Positions 11,998-29,899 of a stretch of 32,000 nt of DNA are shown here, in pieces (within the stretch, counting starts at the first letter, position 1; every line of letters starts with the position of its first letter). The translations under genes and the position numbers were made by a program. A model generated the notes under the pieces. The model searched no databases and was not told the origin of the DNA. It worked only from the letters and a program-made list of their open reading frames with translations. Where the stretch lies: assembly GCA_041661045.1 (NCBI GenBank), contig JBAZVE010000001.1, positions 480,001 through 512,000 on the forward strand. The letters are read 5' to 3'. Source of the DNA: Candidatus Saccharimonadota bacterium (lineage in GTDB: Bacteria > Patescibacteriota > Gracilibacteria > UBA1369 > 2-02-FULL-48-14).

Positions 11998-13797
11998 ATG
12001 AATAAACTCGACAAATTGTCTGAATGGCTGAAGGATGCCGTACAAGGCGGGACCAAAGCTCCGCTGGTTTCGCATGTGCCAAGCGCTCAAGCTCCTGCGC
12101 CGGCGGTTCTTAAAAAGACTCGCGGTCCTTCGACTCATCCCAAGGTCCTGCGGGCCATCCCCATTGGGGGGCTGGAAGAGGTGGGGAAAAATGCCATGAT
12201 TTTTGAATACGAGCACGACATTGTGGTGGTGGACATGGGTTTTCAGTTCCCCGAAGATGAACTTTTTGGGGTGGATTACATTATTCCGGACATCGAGTAC
12301 TTGGTGCAAAGGAAGGACCGGATCCGCGGCATTTTGATCACTCACGGACATTTGGATCACATTGGGGCGCTGCCGTATGTTTTGCCTGAACTGGGCTTTC
12401 CGACGGTTTACGGGTCTCCGCTCTCTTTGGGCTTGGTGCAGAAACAACTGGAGGAGCACAAGCTGCTCAAACACACTCGTTTTAAGGTGGTGGACAACAA
12501 GCAAAGCTACCAACTGGGCCAAATGCAGGCGGAGTTTTTCCGCGTGAACCACTCCATTCCAGATGCCATGGGGATTTACCTTAAGAGTCCGGCGGGGAAT
12601 ATTGTGCACACGGGCGACTTTAAGTTTGACTTCACTCCTGCCGACGGGCTTGAGGCGGACATTAAAAAGATTGGTGAAATTGGGCGGCGCGGCGTGAATA
12701 TTTTGTTCTCCGACAGCACGGCGGCTTTGAAGCCGGGGCACACGATTTCGGAACGGATGATTGCCGAGGGCTTGGAGCACGCCATTGTCAACGCCAAGGG
12801 CCGCATTGTGATCGCGTCTTTTGCTTCCCTCATCGGTCGTATTCAACAAATTTTGCAGTTTGCCCAACGGCATGGACGAAAAGTGTTTTTGTCCGGGGGA
12901 AGTTTGGAGGCCAACTTTGAGATTGCCAAGAAGCTCGGCTTTTTGAAGTTTGATGACAAACTGGTGCACAGTATTCGCGAGGTGACCCATTACGGGGATC
13001 GCGAAGTTTTGATCCTCAGTACCGGTGGGCAGGGCGAGCCGATGGCCGCGCTCTCCCGCATGGCCACCAATGCCCACGCTCAGGTGAAAATTCATGATGG
13101 AGATACGGTTGTGATGTCTTCTTCTCCCATCCCCGGGAATGAGCGCCAGATCCAGTTTTTGATCGATCGTTTGGCCCGACTCGGGGCCAAGGTGATTCAC
13201 AATCAAATTGCGGATGTGCATGCCTCCGGACACGGCCAGCAGGAGGATTTGAAGCTGATGATGAGCCTTGCGAGGCCCGAACATTTGGTGCCGATCCATG
13301 GGAACTTTTACATGCGCCGTGCTCACGGAGATTTAGCCCCCGCGGTGGGTATCCCTATTGGCAACACCCACATGCTCGACAACGGGAATGTGATTGAAAT
13401 TAAGGATGGCAAGGTGGACTTCAAAAAAGAAGATATTAAGGTGCGTTATGTTGTGGTGGACGGCCTTGGCCGTGGAGACCTGGGGTCTCAGGTTCTTAAA
13501 GAACGGGAAACCATGGCGGAAAATGGCGTTGTGAGCGTTACGGTTAAGATGAGCCATGGACGAGTGCTGGGTTCGCCACTCCTCTTGCTACGAGGGTTTT
13601 TGGCCGGGAAAGATATGGATAAAAGTCTCAAAGAAATGGATAAAAAGGTGCGGGACAGTATTTTAAAACTGCAGAAAAGGAATAAAAATCCTGGCCTCCG
13701 GGACTATGAAAATGTGATCCGGAGTGACTTGGCCGGGTTTGTTGTGCAAAAGTTCAACAAGCGGCCCCTGATTCTCCCTGTCGTGGTCTTTGTGTAA
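11998..13797 (+). CDS. rnj: ribonuclease J
   Basis: Metallo-beta-lactamase motif ITHGHLDHIGALP, the beta-CASP region and a C-terminal domain. The 599-aa length includes a ~45-aa N-terminal extension. Confidence 0.92.
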   Translation: MNKLDKLSEWLKDAVQGGTKAPLVSHVPSAQAPAPAVLKKTRGPSTHPKVLRAIPIGGLEEVGKNAMIFEYEHDIVVVDMGFQFPEDELFGVDYIIPDIEYLVQRKDRIRGILITHGHLDHIGALPYVLPELGFPTVYGSPLSLGLVQKQLEEHKLLKHTRFKVVDNKQSYQLGQMQAEFFRVNHSIPDAMGIYLKSPAGNIVHTGDFKFDFTPADGLEADIKKIGEIGRRGVNILFSDSTAALKPGHTISERMIAEGLEHAIVNAKGRIVIASFASLIGRIQQILQFAQRHGRKVFLSGGSLEANFEIAKKLGFLKFDDKLVHSIREVTHYGDREVLILSTGGQGEPMAALSRMATNAHAQVKIHDGDTVVMSSSPIPGNERQIQFLIDRLARLGAKVIHNQIADVHASGHGQQEDLKLMMSLARPEHLVPIHGNFYMRRAHGDLAPAVGIPIGNTHMLDNGNVIEIKDGKVDFKKEDIKVRYVVVDGLGRGDLGSQVLKERETMAENGVVSVTVKMSHGRVLGSPLLLLRGFLAGKDMDKSLKEMDKKVRDSILKLQKRNKNPGLRDYENVIRSDLAGFVVQKFNKRPLILPVVVFV

Positions 13798-18300: not shown

Positions 18301-18598
18301 CTTGTTCCGCGTGCTTGAAATCAAGATGCTCGCCAAAAAAGCCCGCGTTATTAATGTGAAAGCCGAAAATGTGCACAGCAGCGAGGACCGCCAAATCATT
18401 TTGCACATGTCTTCTTTTGTGAAGCCGGAAAACATTTTGTCCATGCTGGAATGCAACTCCAAGTGGATCATCTCCGGCACCAAACTCAAAATCAGCTTCA
18501 AAGACCTCGGCGTGGGCTGGGTGGAAGAACTCAAAAAGAGCCTCGCCGCACTGGGCAAAAAAGCTAAGAATGTGCCCGGAAGCGAGGTGGAGAAGTGA
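15311..18598 (+). CDS. mfd: transcription-repair coupling factor Mfd
   Basis: Contains the RNAP-interacting/CarD-like segment (GDFVVHSDHGIGLFLG), a superfamily-2 helicase core (GDVGFGKTEV, DEEQRFG, TATPIPRTL, QLRGRVGR) and a TRG region. It starts with GTG 3 nt after the dnaN stop. Confidence 0.93.
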   Translation: MPTFLSPVKECRHLIKLFPSGQNLKVIEQFKDQGYSSLSGSGNYSSKAFLVSDVLRELKDINKVLWICSDQNHKENIIRALSLWSEVPVYDLNLEENPTRNREVERKNKVKKMEFLSFTLQKEAARFYIIQYKDLFPTYPNLNEIEKSVLKLSQRDEIDSMDFFESLIELGYEVADDSFVEKGEYFRHGDLLTIWPVNSELPLRIELAFDEVEKITLFDQNKKEAISEISSVEIYPIDIPDGSSKLLSTFGRGSLVLDDEVEFPDSETEAFEAAMAERNSESRYIEFRSFMEETPYHHHLHYLSVLKYYNPLDFIADLREKIMQEWTVFLFTKHPEQYHKLFEEKGIACRNYSNGDYRGGAEVVLFPIGQEDVFPEAFQNPALKLTLITDRNIGNFVETEKRAPERQKVYTDFLTGLKTGDFVVHSDHGIGLFLGLDKRTIEQVTREYLKIGYAENDKLFVPIDQADKVSKFIGSGDRPPKLTRLGSAEWSTLQNRVRKETEKIAQELLELYAERESARGFVFSGDTQRMIQFEKNFEYEETPGQTRAILDVKRDMEGKKPMDRLVCGDVGFGKTEVSMRAAFKAVEGGKQVAVLAPITILVDQHYKNFKKRMEGFDVRIEMLSRFRSPAEQKKILRALEKGEIDIIIGTHRLLQGDIKFKDLGLVIIDEEQRFGVKQKEALKDLRKEVHILTMTATPIPRTLNISLHGLRDISTITTPPPGRLPIVTEVRRFSLGLIKSTVEKEIERGGQIYFLHNRVQTIDDMAAKLRSLLPKARIVVTHGKLRPDDLEQRILAFKNGEYDILVSSTIIENGIDLPNANTLIVNSAERFGLAQLYQLRGRVGRSRKQAYAYFLYHMKRLPLDAKKRLRAIVEANELGAGFQIAMKDLEIRGAGDILGANQSGAIQVVGVSHFIRMLNQAVDDLKKGRKVAEENGIPEVTIEIPLPAYVPDEYIVSSKEKISVYQKLAGADTLEYLTELRTELTEDYGRMPEEVGNLFRVLEIKMLAKKARVINVKAENVHSSEDRQIILHMSSFVKPENILSMLECNSKWIISGTKLKISFKDLGVGWVEELKKSLAALGKKAKNVPGSEVEK

Positions 18599-19100
18599 GC
18601 GCGGCGACGGCATTTTTAAGACTGCCTCTGACGACTGCAATCGCGGAGGGCTCCGAGCCTTCTGGGGAGGGCGTTTGAGCTAGATGGTGCTTTAAAAGCG
18701 GCAGGACCTCCTTAAGTCCAAGGGAAGCAATGGCATCGATCAGCAAAGATTTTGCGACAGGATCCGACTCCCAATCCAGCTGCTCCGCTAAAATGAGCCC
18801 GTTGAATTGGAGACCCCCCCGCCCTATAATGCGATACAGCGTTCTACGAATCTTGTGGTCTGGCGTACGCAGAAGTTTTAAGAGCTCTTCTTGAAGCGGC
18901 TCCGGAATGGCTGGTGCGGATTCTGACAAGTATTTGAGGAGTTCCCAGACTTCTTCAGGGCTGAACCCCGAGAGACGAGCTGCGGCTTGTGTCAAAACAT
19001 CTTTCGTGGACATGTTGTTATGAGTAGGGAGGTCAAGATACAAACAGACCAACGGGTCGAGGTCTAGTATTTGCGGTACTTCGGGTAAGGTAGCATCCAT
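18564..19100 (-). CDS. small alpha-helical, HEAT-repeat-like protein (178 aa), last gene of the orphan operon
   Basis: Segments LLKLLRTPDHKIRRTLYRIIGRGG and DWESDPVAKSLLIDAIASLGLKEVLPLLKHHL resemble HEAT/PBS-lyase-type repeats. Its ATG lies 9 nt after the protease stop. Its 3' end overlaps the mfd 3' end by 35 nt. Confidence 0.5.
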   Translation of the reverse strand: MDATLPEVPQILDLDPLVCLYLDLPTHNNMSTKDVLTQAAARLSGFSPEEVWELLKYLSESAPAIPEPLQEELLKLLRTPDHKIRRTLYRIIGRGGLQFNGLILAEQLDWESDPVAKSLLIDAIASLGLKEVLPLLKHHLAQTPSPEGSEPSAIAVVRGSLKNAVAALTSPPRFRAHS

Positions 19101-19109
19101 AAAAGAGGG

Positions 19110-20480
19110 TTATGCGGCTGGGCGGAGGACTAGTCCCACGCTTTTCTCCATTGCGGTAAATTCTTCGGAGAGAGCGGCTCTAATGCGATCGTTGGCCTCC
19201 GACCGAATGAGAGTTCTCATCGCTACTATTAATTGTTGGTTATCCCCTCTTTGTACGCCCAATAAGTCATAAACATTTGCATTGGCGAATTCGCGATGAA
19301 TGGCATCCGTTATTGCGGTTTCATTGGACAAACTTCTCCAGCCTTCCAACGCTTTGCCGAGAGGGGAAGCATGCGCCTCTAAACTGGCCGGGAGCAGGCT
19401 ATTGAAACCAGGGGCTAAACGCTGCAATTCATCAAGAAGCACTGCACTTAAGGTTGGATTTGTCTCTAGGTCTACGAGCGAACGCATGGCCATTCCCAGC
19501 CCAGCCACATCTCCGTTTCTTACCCCAAGTAAGGCGAAAAGGTCTCCGCCAGAAAGCCTTTCCGTCAAAACCTGCTTCATAACGATTTCACTTTGAATCT
19601 CTCTTAAACGCGCAATGGTTTGGCTTAGGGGTGAGGCCTGTGGGGCTAATATGACAAAGGAGAGTACCTCAAAATTATTTTGAAAGGCCTCCACTGAAAG
19701 TTGAAAAGGTTTTGATGTGTCATGGGGGTTCTCCAGGGTGACCAACTGGCGCACCTTGTCGTAAGCAATTATCGCATAGGCGTGAGGGCCAACCAATTTG
19801 TGACCTTCAACAACAATTTCGCCGCGTATTCTAGGAGTACCTGCGGTCAATATACGCCTTCCCGGGTTGTCGGCAGAATATTCCAGGGAACTCAGAGCGC
19901 TCTTAGCCGAAATGCTTATGGGCTTTAAGGCAAGCCCTTTCCCAAGTAGATGTGCCACAGCCTCTTCCCCATAGCCCCCTTCCACAGGGTAGCCCCCTTG
20001 CTTGTCTTTCAATATGGTGCCCCCTCGTGCGTCATGTATTTCCATACTTCTTGAGGAAGCGTAAGCGAGTTCCAAAATAATGTCCCCCAAAGGAGCGTTT
20101 GTTTTTGAATGATATTTCTCCCATGCTTCAGCGCTTCTAACCACGCCCGCCGGGGTCCATTCGTCGCTCCCCGTTCGTTTTACTCGATAGGGGCCTGGGT
20201 GCTTGGCTCCCGGGATGGTGACTTCCCACAAGTCCGGACCCACTTCTTTGATATTTTGGGCGACCATTTGTTTGAACACTTCAGGCGATGTTTTACGAAT
20301 GGCATTTATGGCGGTCAAGAGGTAGCAAACGCCGATTTGACCCTGTCGAATGTTAGAGTCTATGCCGAGGGGATAGAGCTTTTTGAAGAGGGCCGCCTCC
20401 GCGTTGATTTTTGTCCTTAAATGGAGGAGGTCTAAGTCGGCTGCTTTTTTTTGCACGGACTCAGGGGTAGCGGAGTCCAC
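19110..20480 (-). CDS. calpain-like (clan CA, C2-like) cysteine protease with two C-terminal helical repeats (456 aa)
   Basis: Three catalytic motifs match calpain:
- RQGQIGVCYLLTAINA (Cys52) versus QGxLGDCWLLAA
- LVGPHAYAIIAY (His233) versus GHAYS
- TLENPHD (Asn251) versus RNPWG
The Cys-His-Asn order and spacing are calpain-like. The start is GTG at 20480 (20-nt overlap with the upstream gene) or GTG at 20456. Confidence 0.7.
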   Translation of the reverse strand: MDSATPESVQKKAADLDLLHLRTKINAEAALFKKLYPLGIDSNIRQGQIGVCYLLTAINAIRKTSPEVFKQMVAQNIKEVGPDLWEVTIPGAKHPGPYRVKRTGSDEWTPAGVVRSAEAWEKYHSKTNAPLGDIILELAYASSRSMEIHDARGGTILKDKQGGYPVEGGYGEEAVAHLLGKGLALKPISISAKSALSSLEYSADNPGRRILTAGTPRIRGEIVVEGHKLVGPHAYAIIAYDKVRQLVTLENPHDTSKPFQLSVEAFQNNFEVLSFVILAPQASPLSQTIARLREIQSEIVMKQVLTERLSGGDLFALLGVRNGDVAGLGMAMRSLVDLETNPTLSAVLLDELQRLAPGFNSLLPASLEAHASPLGKALEGWRSLSNETAITDAIHREFANANVYDLLGVQRGDNQQLIVAMRTLIRSEANDRIRAALSEEFTAMEKSVGLVLRPAA

Positions 20481-23400
20481 ACTGGTCTTGATTTTGAAGA
20501 AAAAGTTGGTGATCTTTGCGGATGCGCTCTGAGAGCGCTTTGGAGGCTGATTCTAATCGGCCACTAAGGTCAGCACGAAGAGCTAAGTCGGAGATACTTG
20601 GCAGAAGACGCCGCTGGGAAGCGATACTATCCATATGACTACGAAGCTCCAGAACCCATTTTTCGCTTAGGATGTCTCCCCCGCCCAGGACGCGGAGAAT
20701 GTAGGAATTTTGTACGATCTTTTCCATGGTCTCGTCGACGGTTGTTAACCATGTTGCGACGCCTTCACAAACTTGACCGACGGCTTTCAAGATTTCTTTC
20801 GGGCGGAGGACCAGTGGGGGAGTTTCTGTTTCGGTTGGCGCCTTTTCTTCGGCGGTTTTGCCCCGTTCCAGGAGTGTACCTACAGTTTTTTTAAGCTCGT
20901 CTTGGAGCTTGGCGTACTCGTCGACAAGGGCTTTCGCTCGGTTTGCGTCTACATGATCGGGAAGAGGAATTTCATTTCGGACCATTTTTAGGAAATCCTC
21001 TTGCTTTAGGCCGTTTTCTTTACAGAAGGCGGCCATTTCTTTTTGGAGCTGGACACCGCGCTTGTTTACGCGGCTGACATTATTGAGAGTGACATCATCC
21101 GCTTCGACGGCTCCTTTTGTGAAACGACGAAGGGCTGGGCCTCCGAATTCAAAGCCGACTCCAAGGCCGAAAAACATGGCGTTGTTTTGTAGATTTTCCG
21201 CAAAACTTCCTCCGGTGAAAATGGTGTCCAGAGTGGTGCCCAGGGCAACATCTGCGCCCCCTTCCATGGTTGCGCCAATCAAGCGGTTTCCAAGGGCCAT
21301 GCCGTCATCCAGAGAGGAGAGCACGCGCATGCCACCTTTTTCCGTGGCGAGGCGGACGATTTGTTTGGCTTCGGGAGAGAGGGCCATGAGGCGCCCATTT
21401 CGTACGACTGCGGATCCAATGGCTCCGGAGCGTTGAAGTTGGTAAACGGCGCGACCGGCAGCCATGTATCGGGCTGCACCCATGGTCACCGTGTTTACGG
21501 CCATCTCTTTCCCATAAGCATCCACGAAACCTTCAGGGCCATCCTCAAACCCCTTTTGATTGATCACCGCGTTGGAGGCCGTCATGGCGGCTCCGCCCAC
21601 CAAGGCGGCACCCACTACGCCCAGCCCACCCGTTCCAATGGCCACCGCCACGCCCACACCAATAGACGCTGCTATTTTTGTGCCCATTTTTGCGTAGGCC
21701 CAACTTTTGTCACTGGCATTCCAGGAACCGAAGCCTTGGATGTCCGTGAGCAAGTTGACGCCTTCCACCTGGTAAGGTTCCAGGGAAATGCCCAAGTTGT
21801 TTTGAATTTCTTCGGGAGAAGAAGCATTTTTTTCGAGGTATTCTTCAAACTGGGATTGAGCGCCCTCTAGACATGGACCGAGAAAAATCTGAACGGTTTT
21901 TGTGAGGGCTTCATCCGAGGGAAGGGCTTGGCCATCCCGCAAATGTTGAATTTGGAAAATAATGGCGGTGGAAGCCCCTAGCTCTTCAATGCTGTTCACC
22001 GGAGCGGTTAGGATCCCTTTTGCTGCGCTTAAGTCTGGGTTGTTTTGCTCTTCAATCCAGGTAAGAGCTGCCGTTTTTTCTTCGCTAAGCACTTGGGCGA
22101 TATCCACTTTATCAGGAAGCAGCTCGCCGGATTCGTTGATGAGCTCCAGCAGGATTTTTTCGCTGTTGGCGGCTTCACGAGCCAAATCAGACGCCCATCC
22201 TGGGTCGCGGAGATCATCATCAATAGAGCCCAGCCTTCCACTGAATAGTTTGGCAACGGCGACACAGCTTTTTGCGTAGGAAGCGTAGTCCCCACCGGTT
22301 TTTTCGGTGGTGAGCTTCTCGGCCAGTTGTTGCTTGATTACCGTGAAGAGCTTTTGATAATCCAGCTTGAGCTCGTCACTTTGGAACTCGTTGTTGTCTA
22401 CTTTTTCATGGAGTTCCAGTGTCCACCCGATTGCTTCGTCGATGGACATGAGAGGCATAGTGGTTTGGGTCACTTGCATGGCGGCTTCAATATTTCTCGC
22501 GGCGGAATTCTCAAGGGTTTCATCGATGTTCGCGCTCAGCTCTACAAAGCGCTTGCTGTTTGTGAGGTAGCTGTCGCGCGTTTTTTTGTACTCTTCGGTG
22601 GCTTTTTCTTTTGGCAGAGCCTCCGTGAGGCTCGCGGATAGGCCCTCTAAGTTTTCTTGGCAGGCTGCGCTGATTTGAGACAAGGCTTGCTGTTCTTTTT
22701 CTCGGTCGTCCCACATATCCATTGCATTTGCCGCGGTGAGCGCTTTTTCCAGAAAAGCGACGGTCCCGTGGGCGGTGGGATCCAGAACAAAACCGTCTTC
22801 AAAGTCTTCGTCCAGGGCGAGCTTACGGCCGGCCTCCTCGTTTTGTTCGGTGGCGAGCCTTTTTTCAACCAGGGTCTGAATATAGCTTGCCCTTAGCTCT
22901 CCATTGGCAATAGAGGCATCGCTTAAATCTTCTTTGATCTGATCGTCAGTCTGCATGGCGACCTCTGTGTCCAGCTCCTCGGCAACAGCGTTAAGGGCTT
23001 TTGCGTACTTAGGTTCGACCGCGGCATACCAACGGATTGCCTCTACGCTTGGGATGGCGGTAGTTTCTGCCGCTGCGAGGTTTAAGTGTTCGCCGATTTC
23101 CAGTTGATCAGGCCGTGCTTGGGTTGTTTTTAAAGAAAACTCACCATTTTCATCAATAAAAGGGGTGGTTCCCGTTTGAGTGCGCTCGGCCTGAAGTTTC
23201 TGAATGATGGCGAAGTGTTTTCTTGGATCTTCTTTCCATGGTATGCCAAGCTCTCGTTCAACAATCAGAGACAGGTTGTCCCCATTTTCGACAGGGTACT
23301 TTCCCTTTTTCCATTCACGGTAAGCGGCGATGGAGGTAGAGAGGGTTTCGAGGGTTTGGCTGAGGTCCGCTTGCAGCCGGCTAATCTCTTCTGGCGAGGA

Positions 23401-23625
23401 GGCCTCTTTGAGCAGACCAAGAATGTTTTGTGAAAACGCCTCTTGTAGGGCAGGCTCTGCCACTTGGTTTTTGAGAGTTTCTTGGAAACGGTCCACCCCC
23501 TCAATAAATAGGGTCAGAGCCCGGTCTTTTTCTTGAGCATCATCCAGGATGGGTTTGTCTGAGGCCTCAATGGTTTTTTGGACCCGCTCCTGCTGCTTGT
23601 TGATGGAGTTTTCCGAATTTATCAT
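20461..23625 (-). CDS. large orphan protein with central glycine-zipper hydrophobic hairpin (1054 aa from Met34 of the tracked ORF)
   Basis: A long ORF with no signal peptide. The N-terminal ~650 aa are acidic and helical. KIAASIGVGVAVAIGTGGLGVVGAALVGGAAMTASNAVI spans ORF aa 683-721 (nt 21562-21678). A second patch, MFFGLGVGFEFGGPAL, lies at nt 21133-21180. The preferred ATG at 23625 shares ATGA with the stop of the upstream 104-aa ORF. Confidence 0.7.
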   Translation of the reverse strand: MINSENSINKQQERVQKTIEASDKPILDDAQEKDRALTLFIEGVDRFQETLKNQVAEPALQEAFSQNILGLLKEASSPEEISRLQADLSQTLETLSTSIAAYREWKKGKYPVENGDNLSLIVERELGIPWKEDPRKHFAIIQKLQAERTQTGTTPFIDENGEFSLKTTQARPDQLEIGEHLNLAAAETTAIPSVEAIRWYAAVEPKYAKALNAVAEELDTEVAMQTDDQIKEDLSDASIANGELRASYIQTLVEKRLATEQNEEAGRKLALDEDFEDGFVLDPTAHGTVAFLEKALTAANAMDMWDDREKEQQALSQISAACQENLEGLSASLTEALPKEKATEEYKKTRDSYLTNSKRFVELSANIDETLENSAARNIEAAMQVTQTTMPLMSIDEAIGWTLELHEKVDNNEFQSDELKLDYQKLFTVIKQQLAEKLTTEKTGGDYASYAKSCVAVAKLFSGRLGSIDDDLRDPGWASDLAREAANSEKILLELINESGELLPDKVDIAQVLSEEKTAALTWIEEQNNPDLSAAKGILTAPVNSIEELGASTAIIFQIQHLRDGQALPSDEALTKTVQIFLGPCLEGAQSQFEEYLEKNASSPEEIQNNLGISLEPYQVEGVNLLTDIQGFGSWNASDKSWAYAKMGTKIAASIGVGVAVAIGTGGLGVVGAALVGGAAMTASNAVINQKGFEDGPEGFVDAYGKEMAVNTVTMGAARYMAAGRAVYQLQRSGAIGSAVVRNGRLMALSPEAKQIVRLATEKGGMRVLSSLDDGMALGNRLIGATMEGGADVALGTTLDTIFTGGSFAENLQNNAMFFGLGVGFEFGGPALRRFTKGAVEADDVTLNNVSRVNKRGVQLQKEMAAFCKENGLKQEDFLKMVRNEIPLPDHVDANRAKALVDEYAKLQDELKKTVGTLLERGKTAEEKAPTETETPPLVLRPKEILKAVGQVCEGVATWLTTVDETMEKIVQNSYILRVLGGGDILSEKWVLELRSHMDSIASQRRLLPSISDLALRADLSGRLESASKALSERIRKDHQLFLQNQDQCGLRYP

Positions 23626-23936
23626 GAGAGGCTTTTCGTTAGATCTGACTCTGCTTCGTTGACTTCTTGTTTGTGTAAAGACTCGTGGACGGTACGAGTT
23701 GTTTTTCGTTTCAAAACACCCCACTTTTTCAGCACACTTTTCATGGAAGAGGGGCTGGCCGCTTCTTTCAGATGGGCTTTAAGTGAGGCCTCATTTTTTT
23801 CTAAAACTAAAATCAGCGCCGTTTTCTCAAAGTCGTCCATGCCTTTGAGCTCGCTCAGAAGCAGATCCTTTTGTGCTTTGCTCAGGAGAAGGTTTTTCAC
23901 CACAAGCGCTTCGACACGGTCGGTGGAGGTTGCCAT
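23622..23936 (-). CDS. small helical orphan protein (104 aa)
   Basis: ORF with helix-favouring, Lys/Glu/Leu-rich composition. Its stop overlaps the start of the large downstream gene (ATGA at 23622-23625), implying translational coupling. Confidence 0.55.
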   Translation of the reverse strand: MATSTDRVEALVVKNLLLSKAQKDLLLSELKGMDDFEKTALILVLEKNEASLKAHLKEAASPSSMKSVLKKWGVLKRKTTRTVHESLHKQEVNEAESDLTKSLS

Positions 23937-23957
23937 ACGGGTTTGTTTTATCTCGTA

Positions 23958-23986
23958 ATTCTACCACAAAACGGCCTTTCTTTCAA
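23958..23986 (-). promoter_or_regulatory. sigma70-like promoter upstream of the 104-aa gene
   Basis: The minus strand reads TTGAAA (23986-23981), a 17-nt spacer, then TAGAAT (23963-23958). This lies ~21 nt upstream of the ATG at 23936. Confidence 0.45.
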
Positions 23987-24027
23987 GGTGGTGACGAGGT
24001 AAAGGGCGAGCAGTGAAAAGCATGGAC

Positions 24028-25116
24028 TTAGGACGCCTTTTTTGAGTCGTCAAATAAGAATTCCTCGTCATCGTTGAAGAGGTCGGGATTGAGCTCATCC
24101 TTGGGACGGTTCGCGCTGGCAATAAGACCATTTGCCGTGGCCTCTTCCTTGGCGGCAATTTCTTCCGCGGTTCCACGGATGTCTTTGGGGTGGAAGGCGT
24201 CGTCGGTGAAGAGAGAGGTGGTGAGATGGGTTCCGTCTGCTTGTGTTAAGATGACAGCTCCATTCTCCAGCCTTGCCGATTTAGTTTGGGCCAGCTTGTC
24301 GTAGGGGTTGGAGCCCAATCCTTCCAGGATAGTTGTGGAAGCAGCGCTCAGGGCCATAGGGTAAGCCTCGAGAAGGTAATTCAAGTCACCCGCCTCCCTA
24401 GCCAATTCTTTTGCGACGGTCGCGGCTCTTTCATTGGGGGCTACTGAGGCAAGATCAACGGCGCCCCTGGGGGCGTCTGACGTAGGAAGCTCTTGAGACA
24501 CAGTTTTGGCATCGGGTGCGCTTCGTTCGGAAGTGTATTCAACCTGTGTGTTGGTCCCAAATTCGTTGCGCACATTCTGGATCACATCCCTTCTTCCGCC
24601 TGTTCTGAAGAAACCAGGGCTTTTGGGTGTGCTTTGGTTGGGATGGGCCCCACCAAAATATACTTCACCGGTGTTCAAGTCCTCTGGTTTAGGTAGGAAG
24701 GCTAAGTAAGCATCCAAATCTGCGGGGTCAGTCCCTGGCATATGCGGGTCTGTCTCGGTTTCTGCTGGCTGAGTTTCTTTTACCTCACCTTTTTTGTCTA
24801 GCCCGGCAGCCTTAAGCTCCAGATAGGTCTTGAAAAAAATTGCATTTTGTTCAGCCGTTCCTTTGTAGCCGTAGGCATCTTTAGTAGTGCTGAGCGCAGC
24901 CATGTTCGCAGGCTTGTTCTTATTAAAGCCATCAATGAAGGAAGGATTTCGTTTTATGAAGTTAATACGCCCCACAAAGCTAGGATCGTCTCCTAGTTTT
25001 GACATAGCATTGTAGAGTTGGACGGCCTCGCCTTTTTCAAGACGACCGAGGAGCGCTTTGGCTTTATCGGGAGTGCTTTGTTCGGGGCCGTTGTCGCGGG
25101 AGGATTCAATAGACAT
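24028..25116 (-). CDS. orphan protein (362 aa from the second Met), acidic C-terminus
   Basis: Clean ORF with no signal peptide and no recognisable motif. The C-terminus is DLFNDDEEFLFDDSKKAS. The ATG at 25116 (MSIESS...) is preferred over 25152. Confidence 0.55.
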   Translation of the reverse strand: MSIESSRDNGPEQSTPDKAKALLGRLEKGEAVQLYNAMSKLGDDPSFVGRINFIKRNPSFIDGFNKNKPANMAALSTTKDAYGYKGTAEQNAIFFKTYLELKAAGLDKKGEVKETQPAETETDPHMPGTDPADLDAYLAFLPKPEDLNTGEVYFGGAHPNQSTPKSPGFFRTGGRRDVIQNVRNEFGTNTQVEYTSERSAPDAKTVSQELPTSDAPRGAVDLASVAPNERAATVAKELAREAGDLNYLLEAYPMALSAASTTILEGLGSNPYDKLAQTKSARLENGAVILTQADGTHLTTSLFTDDAFHPKDIRGTAEEIAAKEEATANGLIASANRPKDELNPDLFNDDEEFLFDDSKKAS

Positions 25117-25120
25117 GTGT

Positions 25121-25156
25121 TTTTGTGTTATGAAATCTTTACATTTTAACACAAAA
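25121..25156. promoter_or_regulatory. 10-bp perfect inverted repeat overlapping the putative promoter of the 362-aa gene
   Basis: TTTTGTGTTA (25121-25130), 16 nt, TAACACAAAA (25147-25156). The right arm overlaps a minus-strand extended -10 element, TGtTAAAAT (TAAAAT is the reverse complement of 25143-25148). Confidence 0.4.
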
Positions 25157-25224: not shown

Positions 25225-25659
25225 GGGGATGTACAGGCTTTGACAGAAAGATTAGAAGTCCGTTGCCTGCTTTCAGGTGGTTGCTTGGTCCCACCTTAAC
25301 CCGTCCAAGCAAATTAAGTGCTAAAACCACTGCAGAGATCATCCGCGAAGACGCTCTACGACTTGCTCGTTCTGCGTTTCAACCAGCCCGTGCTTTGGCA
25401 CTCGCTGCGTAGTTGATCTTGAACCGTCATTAAGTACGGTTCCGCTCACTCATCGACGCCTTGTGGATGAAATGGGTGTAATAATCGAGGCTTAGGGAAA
25501 CTCCTGCTTGTGTTCCGGGGGCGTACTGAAACTTTGAAGACACGACAGCGGTGCTTTTGTCCACCTTTTATACCGCTGCCGTAGACAAAGTGGACTATGA
25601 AAGTAAACGGTTTCGCACTTCCTTTTTGGACGCGGGTTCGATTCCCGCCATCTCCACCA
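25225..25659 (+). ncRNA. ssrA: transfer-messenger RNA (tmRNA, ssrA), one-piece
   Basis: The 5' end GGGGATGTACAGGCTTTGAC matches the tmRNA consensus GGGGnUG....GGnUUCGAC. The 3' end is GGACGCGGGTTCGATTCCCGCCATCTCCACCA, a T-arm plus acceptor plus CCA. The acceptor GGGGATG/CATCTCC includes the G3:U pair. An internal reading frame ends ...ARALALAA-TAG (stop at 25410-25412), a classic tag terminus. Confidence 0.9.
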
Positions 25660-27579: not shown

Positions 27580-27942
27580 TCACTCCATATCGTCAAGATG
27601 TTTGACCACACCATCCTCAAGAAGGATGAGGGTGTCTTTAGCGGTCACCGTAGGGTTCCCATGTGCACCAAGGTGGGCAACAGCCATTCCAGATTCAATA
27701 CACATGACCGATATTCCTCTCATAGGCCCCCAGTTACTAACAAGTATTCTTATTTTATTGGGTGTCACTAGTTTGCCCTTTTCCGAAAGCACTTTAAGTA
27801 GTGAAGTAAGCTCCCCATCACTTTCCCCCAAGAAAACTGTAAGCGCTGCAATTGCAGCGGACACCGACAGGTCTCCCTGCGTTTCCTGTAAAAAACTTTC
27901 GAGTCGACCCCAAGGTGTTTCTGTAGTTTGAAGTGTAGTCAT
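27580..27942 (-). CDS. hypothetical protein (120 aa), distal gene of the Cys-rich operon
   Basis: ORF only. It lies 29 nt downstream of the 216-aa gene on the same strand. Confidence 0.45.
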   Translation of the reverse strand: MTTLQTTETPWGRLESFLQETQGDLSVSAAIAALTVFLGESDGELTSLLKVLSEKGKLVTPNKIRILVSNWGPMRGISVMCIESGMAVAHLGAHGNPTVTAKDTLILLEDGVVKHLDDME

Positions 27943-27971: not shown

Positions 27972-28622
27972 CTAACCAACAAGCAGCCTATTTAGGTGAG
28001 GATATGTAGAGCCAAAGCTTTCGACGGATCTCACACAGTACAAAGCCCTCACCGTAGCAGTGGCAGGAGTATTGTTGCGGTTGGAAAAATGTGCACACCT
28101 GCCTACGGAAATCAAAGGATCTTGAATGTAAGCTATCCCGTCGGGGCAGTACTCAAGCAAGTTCATAAGGGGGCCGAGACGGAGGCACTCCACCTCTACA
28201 TCAAGATCTCCCTTAATAGGGCTGCCGGTGTAGACATCTGTGCGCAAAACATGAAAAGCAAATCCTACCTGGGTTTGTACGTCTCTTTCTTCGACAGTCC
28301 CTACTAAAATAACATTGCCCGGCCTTAGATCGCGAGGATCGATAGCAACGAGTGAACGCAAGCCAAAATCCTCTACCGTAGGTATCCCCAATGGTGGCTT
28401 CTCTCTGAGCGCTCGCCTCGTTTGAGATAGTAATAGGCCCGCCTCTTCCTCTAGTTTTAAGAAATCTGCTATGGGCCTCATGCGCTCGTTGTAGCGATCA
28501 AGTGCATCTACAGGACCAGACCCTTGGGCTGGGCGTGCCCCTGTGTATAAAGACGGTGCTCGCATATACTTTGGAGAGTAAGCTAAAGTGGGTAGGATGC
28601 CACAAAACGCTGCTTGTGTCAA
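27972..28622 (-). CDS. hypothetical protein (up to 216 aa)
   Basis: ORF only. It lies 21 nt downstream of the zinc-ribbon gene. Its start is uncertain because there are internal Met codons. Confidence 0.45.
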   Translation of the reverse strand: MTQAAFCGILPTLAYSPKYMRAPSLYTGARPAQGSGPVDALDRYNERMRPIADFLKLEEEAGLLLSQTRRALREKPPLGIPTVEDFGLRSLVAIDPRDLRPGNVILVGTVEERDVQTQVGFAFHVLRTDVYTGSPIKGDLDVEVECLRLGPLMNLLEYCPDGIAYIQDPLISVGRCAHFSNRNNTPATATVRALYCVRSVESFGSTYPHLNRLLVG

Positions 28623-28643: not shown

Positions 28644-28919
28644 TCACCCAATGTTCTCCCAGAAGCATTTTTGGCAGTAAATAGTGTAGGGGGCTTCGGG
28701 CGGGTAGACGGAGAGCATGTCTTGTTGGCATTTGGCGCAGGTGCGTTTGTACATTTGCCGTTCGCTTCGAAGTGCCATGCGATGGCGGTGACGACAAGTT
28801 GGACAATGAGTGGGGGGTGGCAAATTTTTGCGCTTATAAAAGTCGGCTTCGGCGCTGATGACCAGGAAGTTTCTTCCGCAGTTGGGAGTGCTGCATTGAA
28901 GGGAAGGAGAGGCGTTCAT
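28644..28919 (-). CDS. double zinc-ribbon protein (91 aa)
   Basis: Four Cys pairs are present: C9/C14, C39-P-T-C42, C61-A-K-C64 and C82-Q-K-C85. They occur in the context FLVISAEADFYKRKNLPPPTHCPTCRHRHR...MYKRTCAKC...YTIYCQKCFW. The ATG at 28919 lies 5 nt after the upstream gene's stop. The upstream part of the tracked 202-aa ORF only overlaps the neighbouring gene and is not counted. Confidence 0.7.
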   Translation of the reverse strand: MNASPSLQCSTPNCGRNFLVISAEADFYKRKNLPPPTHCPTCRHRHRMALRSERQMYKRTCAKCQQDMLSVYPPEAPYTIYCQKCFWENIG

Positions 28920-28924
28920 AGTGT

Positions 28925-29899
28925 TTAGAGGATTAAGGGTGAATCGGTTTCGGTTTGGAGGCGGTTGTGTTCGTAGTCGGAGATGAAGTAGGGCGTGAGA
29001 TTGTAGTGGCCGCCTGCAATGAGCTCTTGGTGGATTTCGGCGACTTTTTTGGCGTAGTCTTCGGGTGAGTAGGGCTGATTTAAAATGTGGTATTCCTTGT
29101 TTTCCAGGTAGACGCAGCCGAAGCAGTTTTTGAGGTTGCGGGAGTAGGCGCAGAATTCGGAATCGCTGGAGCGGTCGGTGTGGAGACAGAAGTTGCAGTT
29201 GAAGCAGAGTGGGGACTGCACACAGCTGTAGAGGGCCTCGGCTTCGAAACAAACGGTGAGGTCCACACAGTCTTTGTTGGCATTGGCTTCCACGGTGTAG
29301 AGGCAGTCTTCGGAGGCAAAAATGTCGTAGCAGTTGAAGCAGTTTTTACTTTCCGTAATGTGATCGCCGGTGCAATTTTCGGTCATAGTTTGATGGAAGG
29401 CGGGGAGAGGGGTTTTGCGTTTCAACGCTTCCACTTGTGTTTGGATGAAGGCGAGGTGATCGGGATTGGAGAGATCGAATTGGGCGATTTTTTGCACATA
29501 TTCTTCTTTGCTGAGAGGCTGGTTGAAGAGGTGATATTGTTTTTGATAGAGCCCCACACAGCCGAAACAATTTTTGCAGCCGTAACAGTCTTGGCTGTAT
29601 TGGCATTCGGCGCAGTTTTGGCAGTCCTGGCAGAAGTCGCAGCTGTAGCAATTGACGCAATCGACGCATTCGGTGCACCACTGACAATTCACGCAAAACG
29701 ACACGCCGCTACAGTCACTGCATTTGCGGGAATAACGACCGTAGTACACATCTTCGCAGTAGAAAACGCCGAAGCAGTAATAGCAGTTTTTAGACTTCAC
29801 CGCGGTGTCCGAATAGCCACAATTTTCGGCCATGACGAGCTTGAGGTTGTAACGGGGCTGCGTCCGCAAAAGATTTTGGAATTCTTGTATGAAAGGCAT
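28925..29899 (-). CDS. extremely Cys-rich repeat protein with internal duplication (324 aa, ~34 Cys)
   Basis: MPFIQEF... start at 29899. In the run CVNCQWCTECVDCVNCYSCDFCQDCQNCAEC (nt 29603-29695), Cys recurs every third residue 11 times. The protein has two colinear halves, each ending NCFGCV(G/Y)L..K.YH(L/I)(F/L)NQP.S.E(E/D)Y..K(I/V)A. Confidence 0.75.
   Translation of the reverse strand: MPFIQEFQNLLRTQPRYNLKLVMAENCGYSDTAVKSKNCYYCFGVFYCEDVYYGRYSRKCSDCSGVSFCVNCQWCTECVDCVNCYSCDFCQDCQNCAECQYSQDCYGCKNCFGCVGLYQKQYHLFNQPLSKEEYVQKIAQFDLSNPDHLAFIQTQVEALKRKTPLPAFHQTMTENCTGDHITESKNCFNCYDIFASEDCLYTVEANANKDCVDLTVCFEAEALYSCVQSPLCFNCNFCLHTDRSSDSEFCAYSRNLKNCFGCVYLENKEYHILNQPYSPEDYAKKVAEIHQELIAGGHYNLTPYFISDYEHNRLQTETDSPLIL

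What the first reader, a model, noticed from the sequence alone, without database searches (positions are those of the whole stretch)
18564..25156. Orphan, translationally coupled operon: calpain-like protease, 1054-aa glycine-zipper membrane protein, small helical protein, HEAT-like protein and a 362-aa orphan
All five genes are on the minus strand. The junctions look like one expression unit:
- The 104-aa ORF's stop and the large gene's Met share ATGA (23622-23625).
- The large gene's stop (20461-20463) lies inside, or 4 nt before, the protease start (GTG at 20480 or 20456).
- Only 9 nt separate the protease and the HEAT-like gene.
- A TTGAAA-17-TAGAAT promoter precedes the 104-aa gene.
- A 10-bp perfect inverted repeat overlaps the promoter of the 362-aa gene.

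No member has a signal peptide. Apart from the protease fold I cannot place any of them in a described family.

The combination is a papain/calpain-type protease, a very large helical protein with a Gly/Ala/Val membrane hairpin, and a repeat-type partner. In logic, though not in sequence, this resembles protease-gated membrane effectors such as bacterial gasdermin-protease operons. It also resembles effector/chaperone modules of host-attached bacteria. Either reading would make this an undescribed system.
Basis: partly seen in the sequence, partly recalled or inferred. Interest (0 to 1): 0.8.

Follow-up and report, generated by a model that had tools for sequence, protein, structure and literature searches.

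The report
Giant modular CPR protein, split protease

Summary
The sequence features are real: ORFs, ATGA overlap, 20-nt overlap, 9-nt gap, promoter-like site and inverted repeat. The interpretation changes.

- **Organism:** a Peribacteria-type CPR bacterium that uses the standard genetic code. RF2 is present; NCBI translated the record with code 25.
- **Family:** the 1054-aa protein is not an orphan. An exhaustive HMMER search finds 67 representative clusters. None is covered by Pfam or NCBIfam, and there is no significant fold match.
- **Architecture:** an N-module, a helical core and a Gly/Ala hydrophobic hairpin, then 400-2100 aa of variable C-terminal domains (calpain-like, Fic, ART, GGDEF, FHA, J-domain).
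- **Protease:** a genuine calpain-type core. In at least 7 relatives it is fused to the C-terminus of the giant protein. In the window, deleting one C from a C4 run (20464-20467) restores a single 1504-aa ORF.
- **Partners:** the 104-aa protein is conserved upstream in 8 loci. The HEAT-like protein occurs only with the closest protease (window and L003). The 362-aa ORF is an unrelated neighbour.

So the protease is an exchangeable payload, not a gate. The best analogy is a polymorphic toxin or effector. The delivery route and target are unknown.

The parts
23622..23936 (-). Small (104 aa) all-helical partner protein. Its stop overlaps the start of the giant gene (ATGA).
   Evidence: ORF and overlap. 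Homologues sit immediately upstream of the giant gene in L002, L003, L012, L026, L027, L008 and L005. It is present in all 7 loci examined whose giant protein carries the N-module.
20461..23625 (-). Body of the giant modular protein (1054 aa): N-module, helical core, hydrophobic hairpin and coiled-coil tail.
   Evidence: The AF2 model has mean pLDDT 70.1 and is almost entirely helical. No Pfam, NCBIfam, PHROG or PADLOC family and no significant PDB or BFVD fold match.
22906..23625 (-). N-module (residues ~1-240).
   Evidence: In other giant proteins that lack the core, only this part matches: P0028, P0031, P0039, P0047, P0049, P0051, P0053, P0057, P0060 and the L012 protein. It co-occurs with the small upstream partner.
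21736..22893 (-). Conserved alpha-helical core domain (residues ~245-630).
   Evidence: Highest-confidence part of the AF2 model, with 10-residue block pLDDT mostly 80-98. It falls within the part of the profile (positions ~250-930) that most family members match.
21556..21693 (-). Gly/Ala/Val-rich hydrophobic hairpin (residues ~645-690: AKMGTKIAASIGVGVAVAIGTGGLGVVGAALVGGAAMTASNAVI).
   Evidence: The only segment with a 19-residue Kyte-Doolittle mean above 1.4 (maximum 1.96). It is the most conserved block across the family, with nearly invariant glycines.
21133..21198 (-). Second conserved hydrophobic/glycine segment (residues ~810-831: NLQNNAMFFGLGVGFEFGGPAL).
   Evidence: Conserved in alignments A1, A8 and A9. 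pLDDT is low here.
20461..20467 (-). Frameshift point: minus-strand CCCC (20464-20467) followed by TGA (20461-20463).
   Evidence: Deleting one C gives one uninterrupted 1504-aa ORF (...LRYP-ESVQKK...). The protease frame is +1 relative to the body frame. Homology to P0002 runs in the body frame up to ~LQNQDQ. Homology to the L003 fusion starts at protease residue 17.
19641..20432 (-). Calpain-type cysteine protease core (residues ~17-280 of the 456-aa ORF). Gln46, Cys52, His233 and Asn251; codons at 20343-20345, 20325-20327, 19782-19784 and 19728-19730.
   Evidence: Q46, C52 and H233 are invariant and N251 is kept in 5 of 6 domains (Asp in P0005). Peptidase_C2 is hit in 6 of 6 homologous domains, best E 4.4e-11. 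The PDB profile search returns calpains as its 18 best hits, the top ten at E 1.5e-5 to 9.4e-4. The 15 best Foldseek hits are all calpains (14 protease cores and m-calpain).
19113..19628 (-). Helical C-terminal module of the protease ORF, duplicated in the window (residues ~285-356 and ~372-452).
   Evidence: Both copies align to the single copy in L003. One copy is also present in L012. No family could be assigned; the J-domain idea was not supported.
18564..19100 (-). HEAT-like helical-repeat protein (178 aa), a protease-specific downstream partner.
   Evidence: 39% identical (E 2e-29) to the 167-aa ORF that directly follows the fused protease in L003. No homologue downstream of other family members and none found in the metagenome scan. 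HEAT_2 scores 21.8 bits, below the cut-off.
23958..23986 (-). Promoter-like site TTGAAA-17-TAGAAT with TG extension, upstream of the small gene.
   Evidence: 10 of 12 matches. The count of such sites in the region is not above chance.
18541..18560 (-). Terminator-like stem-loop just after the HEAT-like gene's stop.
   Evidence: 7-pair stem followed by a T-rich tail. It is a consensus match only.
24028..25116 (-). 362-aa ORF: an adjacent gene that is not part of the conserved module.
   Evidence: No homologue in any of the related loci then in hand (tblastn). No Pfam, NCBIfam, PHROG, PADLOC or PDB match. The upstream neighbours in L002, L003 and L010 are unrelated genes.

Best explanation
**What is shown**
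- The locus is one copy of a family of giant modular proteins. Every member with a taxonomic label (L003, L004, P0007) comes from Peribacteria, a CPR lineage; the window's own record is labelled Candidatus Gracilibacteria. The family has no description in any library searched.
- A member has a constant part: an N-module of ~240 aa, a ~400-aa helical core, a Gly/Ala-rich hydrophobic hairpin, further conserved amphipathic or hydrophobic helices, and a coiled-coil stalk.
- After the constant part comes an exchangeable C-terminal enzymatic domain.
- A ~100-aa helical protein is encoded immediately upstream.
- Often an unrelated small protein is encoded immediately downstream.
- In this genome the exchangeable domain is a calpain-type cysteine protease. 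It lies in the +1 frame, one C (in a C4 run) away from being fused to the body as in its relatives.
- The HEAT-like protein accompanies this particular protease.
- The 362-aa ORF is unrelated.

**What is inferred**
- The constant body is a targeting and membrane-insertion module. It places or delivers the variable enzymatic domain at or across a membrane.
- The small upstream protein binds the N-module, as a chaperone or targeting factor.
- The protease is the payload and acts on target proteins. It is not an activator of the body.
- The HEAT-like protein is its cognate binding partner, most simply an inhibitor or immunity protein.
- The body-protease junction has three possible states: a recent frameshift that split or inactivated the gene; +1 ribosomal slippage at CCC-UGA that makes both a body-only and a fused product; or an assembly error. 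The catalytic residues are intact, so the protease part is not decayed.
- Whether the target is the organism's own cytoplasm or a host cell is not established. I favour an inter-cellular effector role (about 40%) over an intracellular one (about 25%).
For: **Family and architecture**
- The exhaustive profile search found 67 representative clusters, 33 of them at E <= 1e-30.
- The core is matched in most members. The N-module is matched alone in nine others. Full-length members have 400-2100 aa after the core, against ~120 aa in the window protein.
- The last 300 aa of 34 members fall into 20 unrelated clusters.
- Domains found in members: Fic (2 members), Peptidase_C2, ART-PolyVal, GGDEF, FHA, Metallophos, DnaJ and AAA, plus XopAC/AvrAC-type Fic. 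The protease, GGDEF and J-domain motifs sit at the C-terminal ends.

**Protease fused to the body**
- It is a C-terminal domain in L003/P0005 (46% identity over 357 aa, E 2e-98), in P0029, P0053, P0055 and P0010, and in L012 and L013.

**Calpain type**
-.

**One-base frameshift**
-.
- Neither protease GTG is preceded by the TAAC motif. That motif precedes 12 of 25 genes here, including the body, HEAT-like and 362-aa genes.

**Partners**
- Small partner conserved in 8 loci.
- HEAT-like partner conserved with the closest protease.
- A tightly linked downstream ORF, unrelated between loci, is present in 7 of 10 loci with a complete 3' flank.
- HEAT-repeat immunity proteins and papain-like C-terminal toxin domains are known in polymorphic toxin systems (PMC3482391). 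A papain-like interbacterial toxin with an immunity protein has been characterised (PMC12136450).

**Lineage**
- Peribacteria are inferred symbionts with variable large surface proteins (PMC4736985).
Against: - No signal peptide and no known trafficking domain (WXG/LXG, PAAR, RHS, TPS, MuF) was detected.
- A two-helix hairpin would leave both ends on the same side of the membrane. Without a secretion route, that side is the producer's own cytoplasm.
- Several C-terminal domains (GGDEF, FHA, AAA, J-domain) are more typical of intracellular signalling than of toxins.
- The gene sits among housekeeping genes and keeps its position next to mfd in two genomes. This suggests vertical inheritance rather than an arms-race island.
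- No downstream partner exists in L002, L004 or L008. The HEAT-like protein is absent after the more distant protease domains.
- Association with secretion machinery is weak. T4SS-like genes are near only 2 of the loci examined and are absent from the window, L003 and L012 flanks.
- The AF2 model of the hydrophobic region has low confidence.
Confidence: 0.6

Rival explanations
1. An intracellular, membrane-anchored scaffold or signalling protein. The hairpin anchors the protein in the organism's own membrane with both ends in its cytoplasm. The variable C-terminal domains (protease, GGDEF, FHA, AAA, J-domain, Fic) act on the organism's own proteins, for example in envelope or division control.
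For: - No signal peptide, and a single hydrophobic hairpin.
- The domain repertoire includes typical cytoplasmic signalling modules.
- Housekeeping neighbourhood: mfd, tmRNA, ftsA/ftsZ, dnaN and prfB.
- Synteny with mfd is kept in L002.
Against: - Extreme turnover of the C-terminal domain between close relatives: 20 clusters among 34 tails.
- Toxin- or effector-type domains are present (Fic/XopAC-like, ART-PolyVal, calpain-like).
- Downstream partner genes are tightly linked and change with the domain.
- A dedicated small upstream partner. This pattern is typical of exported effectors rather than of housekeeping scaffolds.
Confidence: 0.25
2. One reading: a protease-gated pore-forming effector, gasdermin-like in logic. 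The calpain-like protease cleaves the large glycine-zipper protein to release or activate a membrane-permeabilising form.
For: - A protease and a protein with a hydrophobic Gly-rich hairpin are adjacent, and fused in relatives.
- Papain-like domains can act as releasing (autoprocessing) peptidases in large toxins (PMC3482391).
Against: - Most family members have the same hairpin body but no protease. They carry unrelated C-terminal domains instead.
- No PADLOC or gasdermin model matches.
- The body is all-alpha, unlike the beta-rich gasdermin fold (own knowledge).
- The HEAT-like partner tracks the protease, not the body.
Confidence: 0.07
3. A component or cargo of a mobile element or DNA-transfer machine: a phage tape-measure-like protein, a 'polyvalent protein' of a conjugative element, or a divergent T4SS membrane component or substrate.
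For: - A long helical protein with a Gly-rich hydrophobic segment resembles tape-measure proteins in gross features.
- One member has an ART-PolyVal domain.
- A T4CP/TraG-like ATPase lies 1.4 kb from P0029. Two T4SS_pilin genes lie near P0055.
- Patescibacterial T4SS lack relaxases and have no known substrates, and VirB6 is undetectable in Gracilibacteria (PMC12102498).
Against: - No PHROG match.
- BFVD fold hits to tape-measure proteins are insignificant (E > 0.05, TM < 0.1).
- No phage or conjugation genes in the window or around L003 or L012.
- Chromosomal housekeeping context.
Confidence: 0.08
4. Junction alternative: the body and the protease are two real genes in this genome, translated separately. 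The protease would be started at GTG 20480 or 20456 by coupling to termination of the body. The fusion in relatives is then the other evolutionary state.
For: - The overlap or 4-nt spacing allows termination-reinitiation.
- The same sequence appears in the JGI/NCBI record and in a Logan assembly.
- The catalytic residues are intact.
- The genome is SD-less, so the lack of an SD is uninformative.
Against: - At least 7 relatives carry the protease fused to the giant protein; no related locus examined encodes it as a separate gene next to a body.
- The break is exactly one base in a C4 run.
- Both candidate starts are GTG and lack the TAAC motif.
- The window body has an unusually short tail.
Confidence: 0.35

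Closest known systems
Polymorphic toxin systems (Zhang et al. 2012, PMC3482391)
   Same: A constant N-terminal part with highly variable C-terminal enzymatic domains among homologues. Papain-superfamily peptidases, Fic and ART occur among the C-terminal domains. Small tightly linked downstream genes change with the domain, and HEAT-repeat immunity proteins (Imm-HEAT) are a known class.
   Different: None of the known trafficking modules or signals (signal peptide, WXG/LXG, PAAR, RHS, TPS/FHA repeats, MuF) is detected. The constant part is a new helical body with a hydrophobic hairpin. The domain set also includes GGDEF, FHA, AAA and J-domains. A downstream gene is missing in 3 of 10 loci. Calpain-type domains are not mentioned in the part of that survey held.
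LXG toxins with Lap targeting factors of the type VIIb secretion system (PMC10801868, PMC9600955)
   Same: A helical N-terminal domain, small alpha-helical partner protein(s) encoded directly upstream, a variable C-terminal toxin and a downstream immunity gene. One LXG toxin, TelE, forms membrane pores through its C-terminus (bioRxiv 10.64898/2026.03.12.711312).
   Different: No LXG, WXG100 or Lap-family Pfam match. The proteins are three to ten times longer. The hydrophobic hairpin is in the constant body, not in the toxin. No T7SS genes were seen in the window or in the neighbours inspected; whether the genome has a T7SS could not be tested.
Calpain (MEROPS/Pfam Peptidase_C2) protease core
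   Same: Gln-Cys-His-Asn constellation with calpain-like motifs (QGxxGxCY, HAY, NPH/NPW). The Pfam C2 model is hit in all 6 homologous domains. The best PDB sequence-profile and fold hits are calpain cores.
   Different: The window protein itself is 1 bit below the Pfam gathering score, and only ~35 residues align. There are no calpain-III/C2L or penta-EF-hand domains. Identity to calpains is ~15%. Calcium dependence is unknown. Here it is a C-terminal module of a giant membrane-associated protein.
MARTX and large clostridial-type toxins (own knowledge, not tested here)
   Same: Very large toxins in which a hydrophobic, Gly-rich region is thought to insert into the target membrane and carry enzymatic effector domains across. 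A cysteine protease domain is part of the polypeptide.
   Different: No sequence or fold similarity detected. In those toxins the protease is constant and autoprocessing. Here it is one of many alternative terminal domains.
Chlamydial inclusion-membrane (Inc) proteins (own knowledge, not tested here)
   Same: A ~40-residue bilobed hydrophobic hairpin in otherwise soluble, helical, lineage-restricted proteins of host-dependent bacteria, with no signal peptide.
   Different: No T3SS is known in CPR. There is no sequence similarity, and sizes and domain content differ.
Bacterial gasdermin-protease operons
   Same: Only the pairing of a protease with a membrane-active-looking protein.
   Different: No model match. 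The fold is all-alpha. The protease is dispensable for most of the family.

Membership tests
Peptidase C2 (calpain) catalytic core | Match to Pfam PF00648 at or above the gathering score (23.8 bits) | tested here: inconclusive
   The window protein scores 22.6-22.8 bits over residues 42-76 only. The L003 and L012 fusions score 24.2 and 24.3 bits. All 6 homologous domains hit at E <= 0.1, best 4.4e-11.
Peptidase C2 (calpain) catalytic core | Gln (oxyanion), Cys, His and Asn catalytic residues in calpain order and motif context | tested here: met
   Alignment A5: Q46, G50, C52, Y53, H233, Y235 and P252 are invariant. N251 is present in 5 of 6 sequences (Asp in P0005).
Peptidase C2 (calpain) catalytic core | Two-lobed calpain protease-core fold | tested here: met
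   The AF2 model (pLDDT 68.8) gives calpains as its 15 best Foldseek PDB hits (calpain-1/3/5/8/9 protease cores and m-calpain), E 7e-5 to 3e-3, 260-340 aligned columns. TM-scores are only 0.2-0.43. The PDB profile search returns calpains as its 18 best hits, the top ten at E 1.5e-5 to 9.4e-4.
Classical calpains | C2-like/calpain-III and penta-EF-hand domains; Ca2+ activation | tested here: not met
   No such Pfam domains in the 456-aa ORF or in the fusions. Ca2+ dependence cannot be tested here.
Polymorphic toxin systems | Homologues share the N-terminal part but carry unrelated C-terminal domains | tested here: met
Polymorphic toxin systems | A recognised trafficking or secretion module (signal peptide, WXG/LXG, PAAR, RHS, TPS, MuF, etc.) | tested here: not met
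   No such Pfam or NCBIfam hits in the window proteins or in 32 family members. No N-terminal hydrophobic segment.
Polymorphic toxin systems | An immunity gene directly downstream that co-varies with the toxin domain | tested here: inconclusive
   A tightly linked downstream ORF is present in 7 of 10 loci. These ORFs are unrelated to each other except for the window/L003 pair, which share the closest protease. None is present in L002, L004 or L008. An immunity function was not tested.
Polymorphic toxin systems | Toxicity of the C-terminal domain to target cells | not testable with these tools
   Needs expression and competition assays.
LXG / T7SSb effectors | N-terminal LXG domain; Lap/WXG100-type partners; T7SSb genes in the genome | tested here: not met
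   No LXG, WXG or DUF3130-type hits for the N-module or the small protein. The genome-wide T7SS content could not be examined.
Bacterial gasdermin-protease defence systems | A gasdermin-fold protein plus an obligatorily associated protease | tested here: not met
   No PADLOC hit. The model is all-alpha. The protease is present in a minority of the family.
Phage tape-measure proteins | PHROG/Pfam TMP family match; phage tail gene neighbourhood | tested here: not met
   No PHROG hit. BFVD matches are insignificant. The neighbours are housekeeping genes.
T4SS substrates or components of Patescibacteria | Consistent linkage to virB4, T4CP or pilin genes | tested here: inconclusive
   A T4CP-like gene lies near P0029 and T4SS_pilin genes lie near P0055. 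None were seen in the window or in the neighbours inspected around L002, L003, L008, L010, L012, L026 and L027.
HEAT-repeat proteins (PF13646) | Pfam HEAT_2 at or above 27.7 bits | tested here: inconclusive
   21.8 bits. The L003 homologue has no hit. No PDB sequence match.
Genetic code 25 (UGA = Gly) lineages, as implied by the NCBI label 'Candidatus Gracilibacteria' | Loss of RF2; in-frame UGA in conserved genes | tested here: not met
   An RF2 gene with the SPF motif lies at 7587-8669. All conserved genes are intact under table 11, and stop use is TAA 12, TAG 10, TGA 5. Code-25 translation gives a 36-aa read-through tail that overlaps the protease ORF.

The most novel reading that the evidence does not exclude
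The family is a CPR-specific, self-contained effector-delivery device. The Gly/Ala hairpin body inserts into the membrane of the host bacterium to which the episymbiont is attached. It then carries exchangeable enzymatic domains (calpain-like protease, Fic, ART and others) into the host cytoplasm, with the small upstream protein as export chaperone and the downstream protein as self-protection. In this genome, the CCC-UGA site would additionally act as a programmed +1 frameshift, prfB-like in logic, that sets the ratio of body-only to body-protease product.
Probability: 0.15. Interest if true: 0.85.

Novelty: new variant of a known kind. Interest (0 to 1): 0.6.

Why it matters
How CPR/Patescibacteria manipulate the cells they live on is largely unknown. 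No effector proteins have been defined for them, and their widespread relaxase-less T4SS has no known substrates (PMC12102498).

This family shows the hallmark of proteins used in inter-organism conflict: one constant body and many exchangeable enzymatic heads. Yet it has a body unlike any described trafficking module.

If it is an effector platform, it offers three things. First, a catalogue of candidate host-targeting activities in Peribacteria. Second, a new membrane-insertion or delivery domain. Third, a bacterial calpain-type protease with a possible dedicated HEAT-repeat inhibitor.

On the practical side, the public record of this genome appears to be translated with the wrong genetic code, which corrupts its protein set.

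Tried and rejected
1. **Word-indexed homology searches.** With the large protein, the protease and a 10-sequence core profile they found almost nothing: 2, 1 and 1 hits. Only the exhaustive HMMER search revealed the family.
2. **P0002's extra 460 aa as the protease.** Rejected; there is no similarity.
3. **PDB sequence searches.** The protease alone or as a 2-sequence profile gave nothing. A 6-sequence profile was needed.
5. **Tape-measure, PHROG and PADLOC/gasdermin ideas.** No support.
6. **J-domain-like reading of the duplicated protease C-terminal module** (the 'LLGVxxGD' motif). A profile search of the PDB gave no J-domain hits.
7. **Homopolymer error in the A8 run (20445-20452) as the cause of the split.** Rejected, because the body-frame TGA lies upstream of that run. 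The C4 run is the only single-base site that restores the ORF.
8. **Metagenome scan for more HEAT-like partners.** Nothing found.
9. **Consistent T4SS linkage.** Not found.
10. **LysM-like appearance of residues ~108-145** (YxVxxGDxL). No Pfam LysM hit in the window protein or in the N-module-bearing members scanned. Left as an untested lead.
11. **Code 25 as an explanation of the TGA junctions.** Rejected.
12. **The look-up of encoding contigs for the JGI protease call (P0004).** Not on record.

Full report
**1. The observation**

All five minus-strand ORFs are present as described.
- The ATGA overlap of the 104-aa and 1054-aa genes is at 23622-23625.
- The TGA of the large gene (20461-20463) lies between the two candidate protease GTGs at 20480 and 20456.
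- There is a 9-nt gap before the HEAT-like gene.
- A TTGAAA-17-TAGAAT site with a TG extension sits at 23986-23958.
- A perfect 10-bp inverted repeat is at 25121-25130 / 25147-25156.
- A terminator-like hairpin follows the HEAT-like gene at 18560-18541.

Promoter-like sites are not more frequent in the region than in shuffles (7 against 4.1 +/- 2.1), so the promoter is plausible but not demonstrated. None of the proteins has a signal-peptide-like N-terminus. The only strongly hydrophobic stretch is residues ~647-688 of the large protein. Pfam, NCBIfam, PHROGs and PADLOC give only two sub-threshold hits: HEAT_2 at 21.8 bits and Peptidase_C2 at 22.6 bits.

**2. Organism and genetic code**

The large protein is identical to a JGI protein from a 1.3-Mb contig and to NCBI MFA6024026.1, labelled 'MAG: Candidatus Gracilibacteria bacterium'. 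Its relatives in species-representative genomes are Candidatus Peribacteria MAGs. Another relative is from Candidatus Peribacteraceae.

The NCBI product is 1090 aa because TGA was translated as Gly (code 25). This gives a 36-residue read-through tail that overlaps the protease ORF. The window argues for the standard code:
- It encodes an RF2 with the SPF motif at 7587-8669.
- Every conserved gene is intact under table 11: mfd, ftsA, ftsZ, dnaN, RNase J, def, femAB-like and others.
- Stop codons are TAA 12, TAG 10 and TGA 5.

The flanks are housekeeping: mfd on one side, tmRNA (25225-25659) on the other.

**3. The large protein belongs to a sizeable, undescribed family**

Word-indexed searches found a single homologue, P0002 (1515 aa, 50% identity). 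An exhaustive HMMER profile search over 1.84 billion representatives found 67 proteins, 33 of them at E <= 1e-30, with lengths up to 3221 aa.

Domain mapping shows three things:
- A core, profile positions ~250-930, is shared by most members.
- An N-module, ~5-240, occurs alone at the start of other giant proteins.
- Almost every full-length member has 400-2100 aa after the core. The window protein has only ~120.

The most conserved block is the Gly/Ala hairpin and the helices after it. An AF2 model built from 32 sequences has pLDDT 70.1. It is almost entirely helical, with a high-confidence domain at residues 245-630 and low confidence across the hydrophobic region. Foldseek against the PDB and against viral models gives no significant match. 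No Pfam or NCBIfam model covers the core in 32 members.

**4. The C-terminal ends are exchangeable**

The last 300 residues of 34 members fall into 20 unrelated clusters. Recognisable domains include:
- Fic, in two members that NCBIfam matches to XopAC/AvrAC-type;
- ART-PolyVal;
- GGDEF;
- FHA;
- a calcineurin-like phosphoesterase;
- a J-domain;
- AAA;
- Peptidase_C2.

Where motifs could be located, they lie near the C-terminus.

**5. The 'separate' protease is one of these C-terminal modules**

In the Peribacteria MAG L003, a 1576-aa protein carries the body followed by a domain 46% identical to the window's 456-aa ORF (E 2e-98). The same domain ends P0029, P0053, P0055 and P0010. It also ends a 1571-aa protein on a 1.25-Mb seawater contig (L012) and a 1641-aa ORF in L013.

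Three lines show it is a calpain-type core:
- In six aligned domains Gln46, Cys52 and His233 are invariant, and Asn251 is kept in five (Asp in P0005). They sit within QGxxGxCY, HAY and NPH/NPW motifs.
- All six hit Pfam Peptidase_C2, best E 4.4e-11. The profile finds calpains as its 18 best PDB hits, the top ten at E 1.5e-5 to 9.4e-4.
- The AF2 model (pLDDT 68.8) has calpains as its 15 best Foldseek hits (14 protease cores and m-calpain).

It lacks the other calpain domains.

**6. The junction**

The protease frame is +1 relative to the body frame. Homology to P0002 continues in the body frame to within ~6 codons of the TGA. Homology to the L003 fusion begins at protease residue 17. Removing a single C from the minus-strand C4 run (window 20464-20467) yields one uninterrupted 1504-aa ORF (...LRYP-ESVQKK...). 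That is the size of the fused relatives.

The nearby A8 run cannot be responsible, because the body-frame stop lies upstream of it.

This genome has no Shine-Dalgarno sequences. Instead, a TAAC motif lies within 24 nt upstream of 12 of 25 starts (background 3.2%, P ~4e-12). It is present before the body, HEAT-like and 362-aa genes but absent before both protease GTGs.

I conclude that body and protease are one ancestral gene. Three states remain open:
- a real 1-nt insertion, producing a split or disabled gene;
- +1 ribosomal slippage at CCC-UGA. From my own knowledge, CCC followed by a stop codon is a shift-prone context;
- an assembly error.

The two assemblies carrying the identical sequence may derive from the same reads, so they do not settle the matter.

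**7. The partners**

*Small upstream protein.* The 104-aa helical protein has homologues directly upstream of the giant gene, often overlapping it by 4 nt, in L002, L003, L012, L026, L027, L008 and L005. All seven N-module-bearing giants examined have it. This suggests that it binds the N-module.

*HEAT-like protein.* It is 39% identical (E 2e-29) to the ORF that follows the fused protease in L003. It has no detectable homologue elsewhere.

*Other downstream genes.* Other loci mostly carry a different, tightly linked small ORF downstream: L009, L011, L012, L026 and L027. Three have none: L002, L004 and L008.

*The 362-aa ORF.* It has no counterpart in the related loci searched and no family match. 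The genes at that position elsewhere are unrelated. It is a neighbour, not a component.

**8. Mechanism**

What is shown is the architecture: a conserved small partner, a conserved body with a hydrophobic hairpin, an exchangeable C-terminal enzyme, and frequently a domain-specific downstream gene.

This is the organisational logic of polymorphic toxin or effector systems. In those systems papain-superfamily peptidases, Fic and ART domains, and HEAT-repeat immunity proteins are all documented (PMC3482391; PMC12136450). The small-helical-partner-plus-helical-N-domain arrangement recalls Lap-LXG complexes of the T7SSb (PMC10801868 and PMC9600955).

I therefore infer the following:
- The body targets and inserts the protein at a membrane.
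- The protease is a payload.
- The HEAT-like protein is its cognate binder, probably an inhibitor.

None of the defining trafficking modules of known systems is present, so this is a functional analogy and not family membership.

The main rival is an intracellular membrane-anchored signalling scaffold. It is favoured by the lack of any export signal, by the hairpin topology, by the GGDEF, FHA, AAA and J-domains, and by the housekeeping, mfd-linked position.

Links to T4SS genes are seen near only two members. They are intriguing given that patescibacterial T4SS lack known substrates (PMC12102498), but they are not consistent.

**9. Novelty and verdict**

The body, the small partner and the HEAT-like protein belong to no described family. 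The protease is a divergent member of a known family in a new context. The organisational principle is known. I class the finding as a new variant of a known kind and rate its interest as moderately high.

It provides candidate host-interaction proteins for a CPR lineage that has none defined, and a new putative membrane-delivery module. However, function, export route and target are all still inferred, and the organism is uncultured.

Noticed in passing
window 7587-8669 (-); whole window: The public NCBI record (MFA6024026.1, 'Candidatus Gracilibacteria bacterium') was translated with code 25: TGA is read as Gly, giving a 1090-aa read-through product. Yet the window encodes an RF2 with the SPF motif, and all conserved genes are intact under table 11. 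The genome's deposited proteome is probably corrupted by read-through at TGA stops.
   Followed up: yes
window, 24 nt upstream of start codons: There are no Shine-Dalgarno sequences. Instead, a TAAC (often YTAAC) motif lies 7-20 nt upstream of 12 of 25 start codons (background 3.2% of windows, P ~4e-12). It may be a lineage-specific initiation or leader signal.
   Followed up: partly
window 25225-25659 (+): A tmRNA gene (Rfam 116 bits) for which ARAGORN predicts an unusually long 30-residue tag, AKTTAEIIREDALRLARSAFQPARALALAA. It is divergently oriented to the 362-aa ORF, and the 10-bp inverted repeat (25121-25156) lies between them.
   Followed up: no
window 27972-28622 and 28644-29252 (-); 27580-27942 (-): Two adjacent ORFs are in the same frame, separated by a TGA. 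Reading through the TGA at 27580 would extend that ORF by 291 codons. This is probably chance given the evidence for code 11, but it was not examined.
   Followed up: no
L003 ~12900-13100; L004; many family members (P0007, P0009, P0010, P0013, P0015, P0019, P0023): A conserved ~60-residue linker motif (L[ST]PAQ..AIL.AH.VG...[YF][ST]..EL..K..IL...GF[TS]..E...L...G..G) follows the core in many members. It is absent from the window protein and has no family assigned.
   Followed up: no
L004 6203-10375: This 1390-aa relative replaces the N-module with two tandem ~100-aa repeats. It also has proline-rich tracts (PPPPPVPP...PPPPPVP) before an unassigned C-terminal domain.
   Followed up: no
L005-L007 2122-4620 (-); L011 18840-20917 (-): A T4CP/TraG/VirD4-like ATPase (DUF87, TrwB_AAD_bind, TraG-D_C) lies 1.4 kb from P0029. 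Two T4SS_pilin genes lie near P0055. This is a possible but inconsistent link to the relaxase-less T4SS of Patescibacteria.
   Followed up: partly
window large protein, around the Gly/Ala hydrophobic hairpin (~res 645-690); core profile A8 positions 352-415: The core profile weakly matches the N-terminal region (chain residues ~39-131) of paramyxovirus F proteins in the PDB (E 0.05-0.2). I take this to be the Gly/Ala-rich fusion-peptide region (own knowledge), so probably only compositional similarity of membrane-inserting segments.
   Followed up: no
window 19113-19628 (-): The helical module after the protease core is duplicated in the window (residues ~285-356 and ~372-452) but single in L003 and L012. 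It carries a conserved L.G...G[DN] motif. Its function is unknown, and no J-domain hits appeared in a PDB profile search.
   Followed up: partly
L012 (seawater contig of 1,246,142 bp): This contig has the size of a complete Peribacteria genome (~1.25 Mb in PMC4736985). It carries a small-partner + N-module giant + protease + 91-aa downstream gene cassette whose middle region differs from the window's core. It may be a second body type using the same N-module and partner.
   Followed up: partly
L014-L025: High-GC (60-73%) metagenome contigs encode ~500-630-aa proteins with a more distant calpain-like domain outside the giant-protein context.
   Followed up: no
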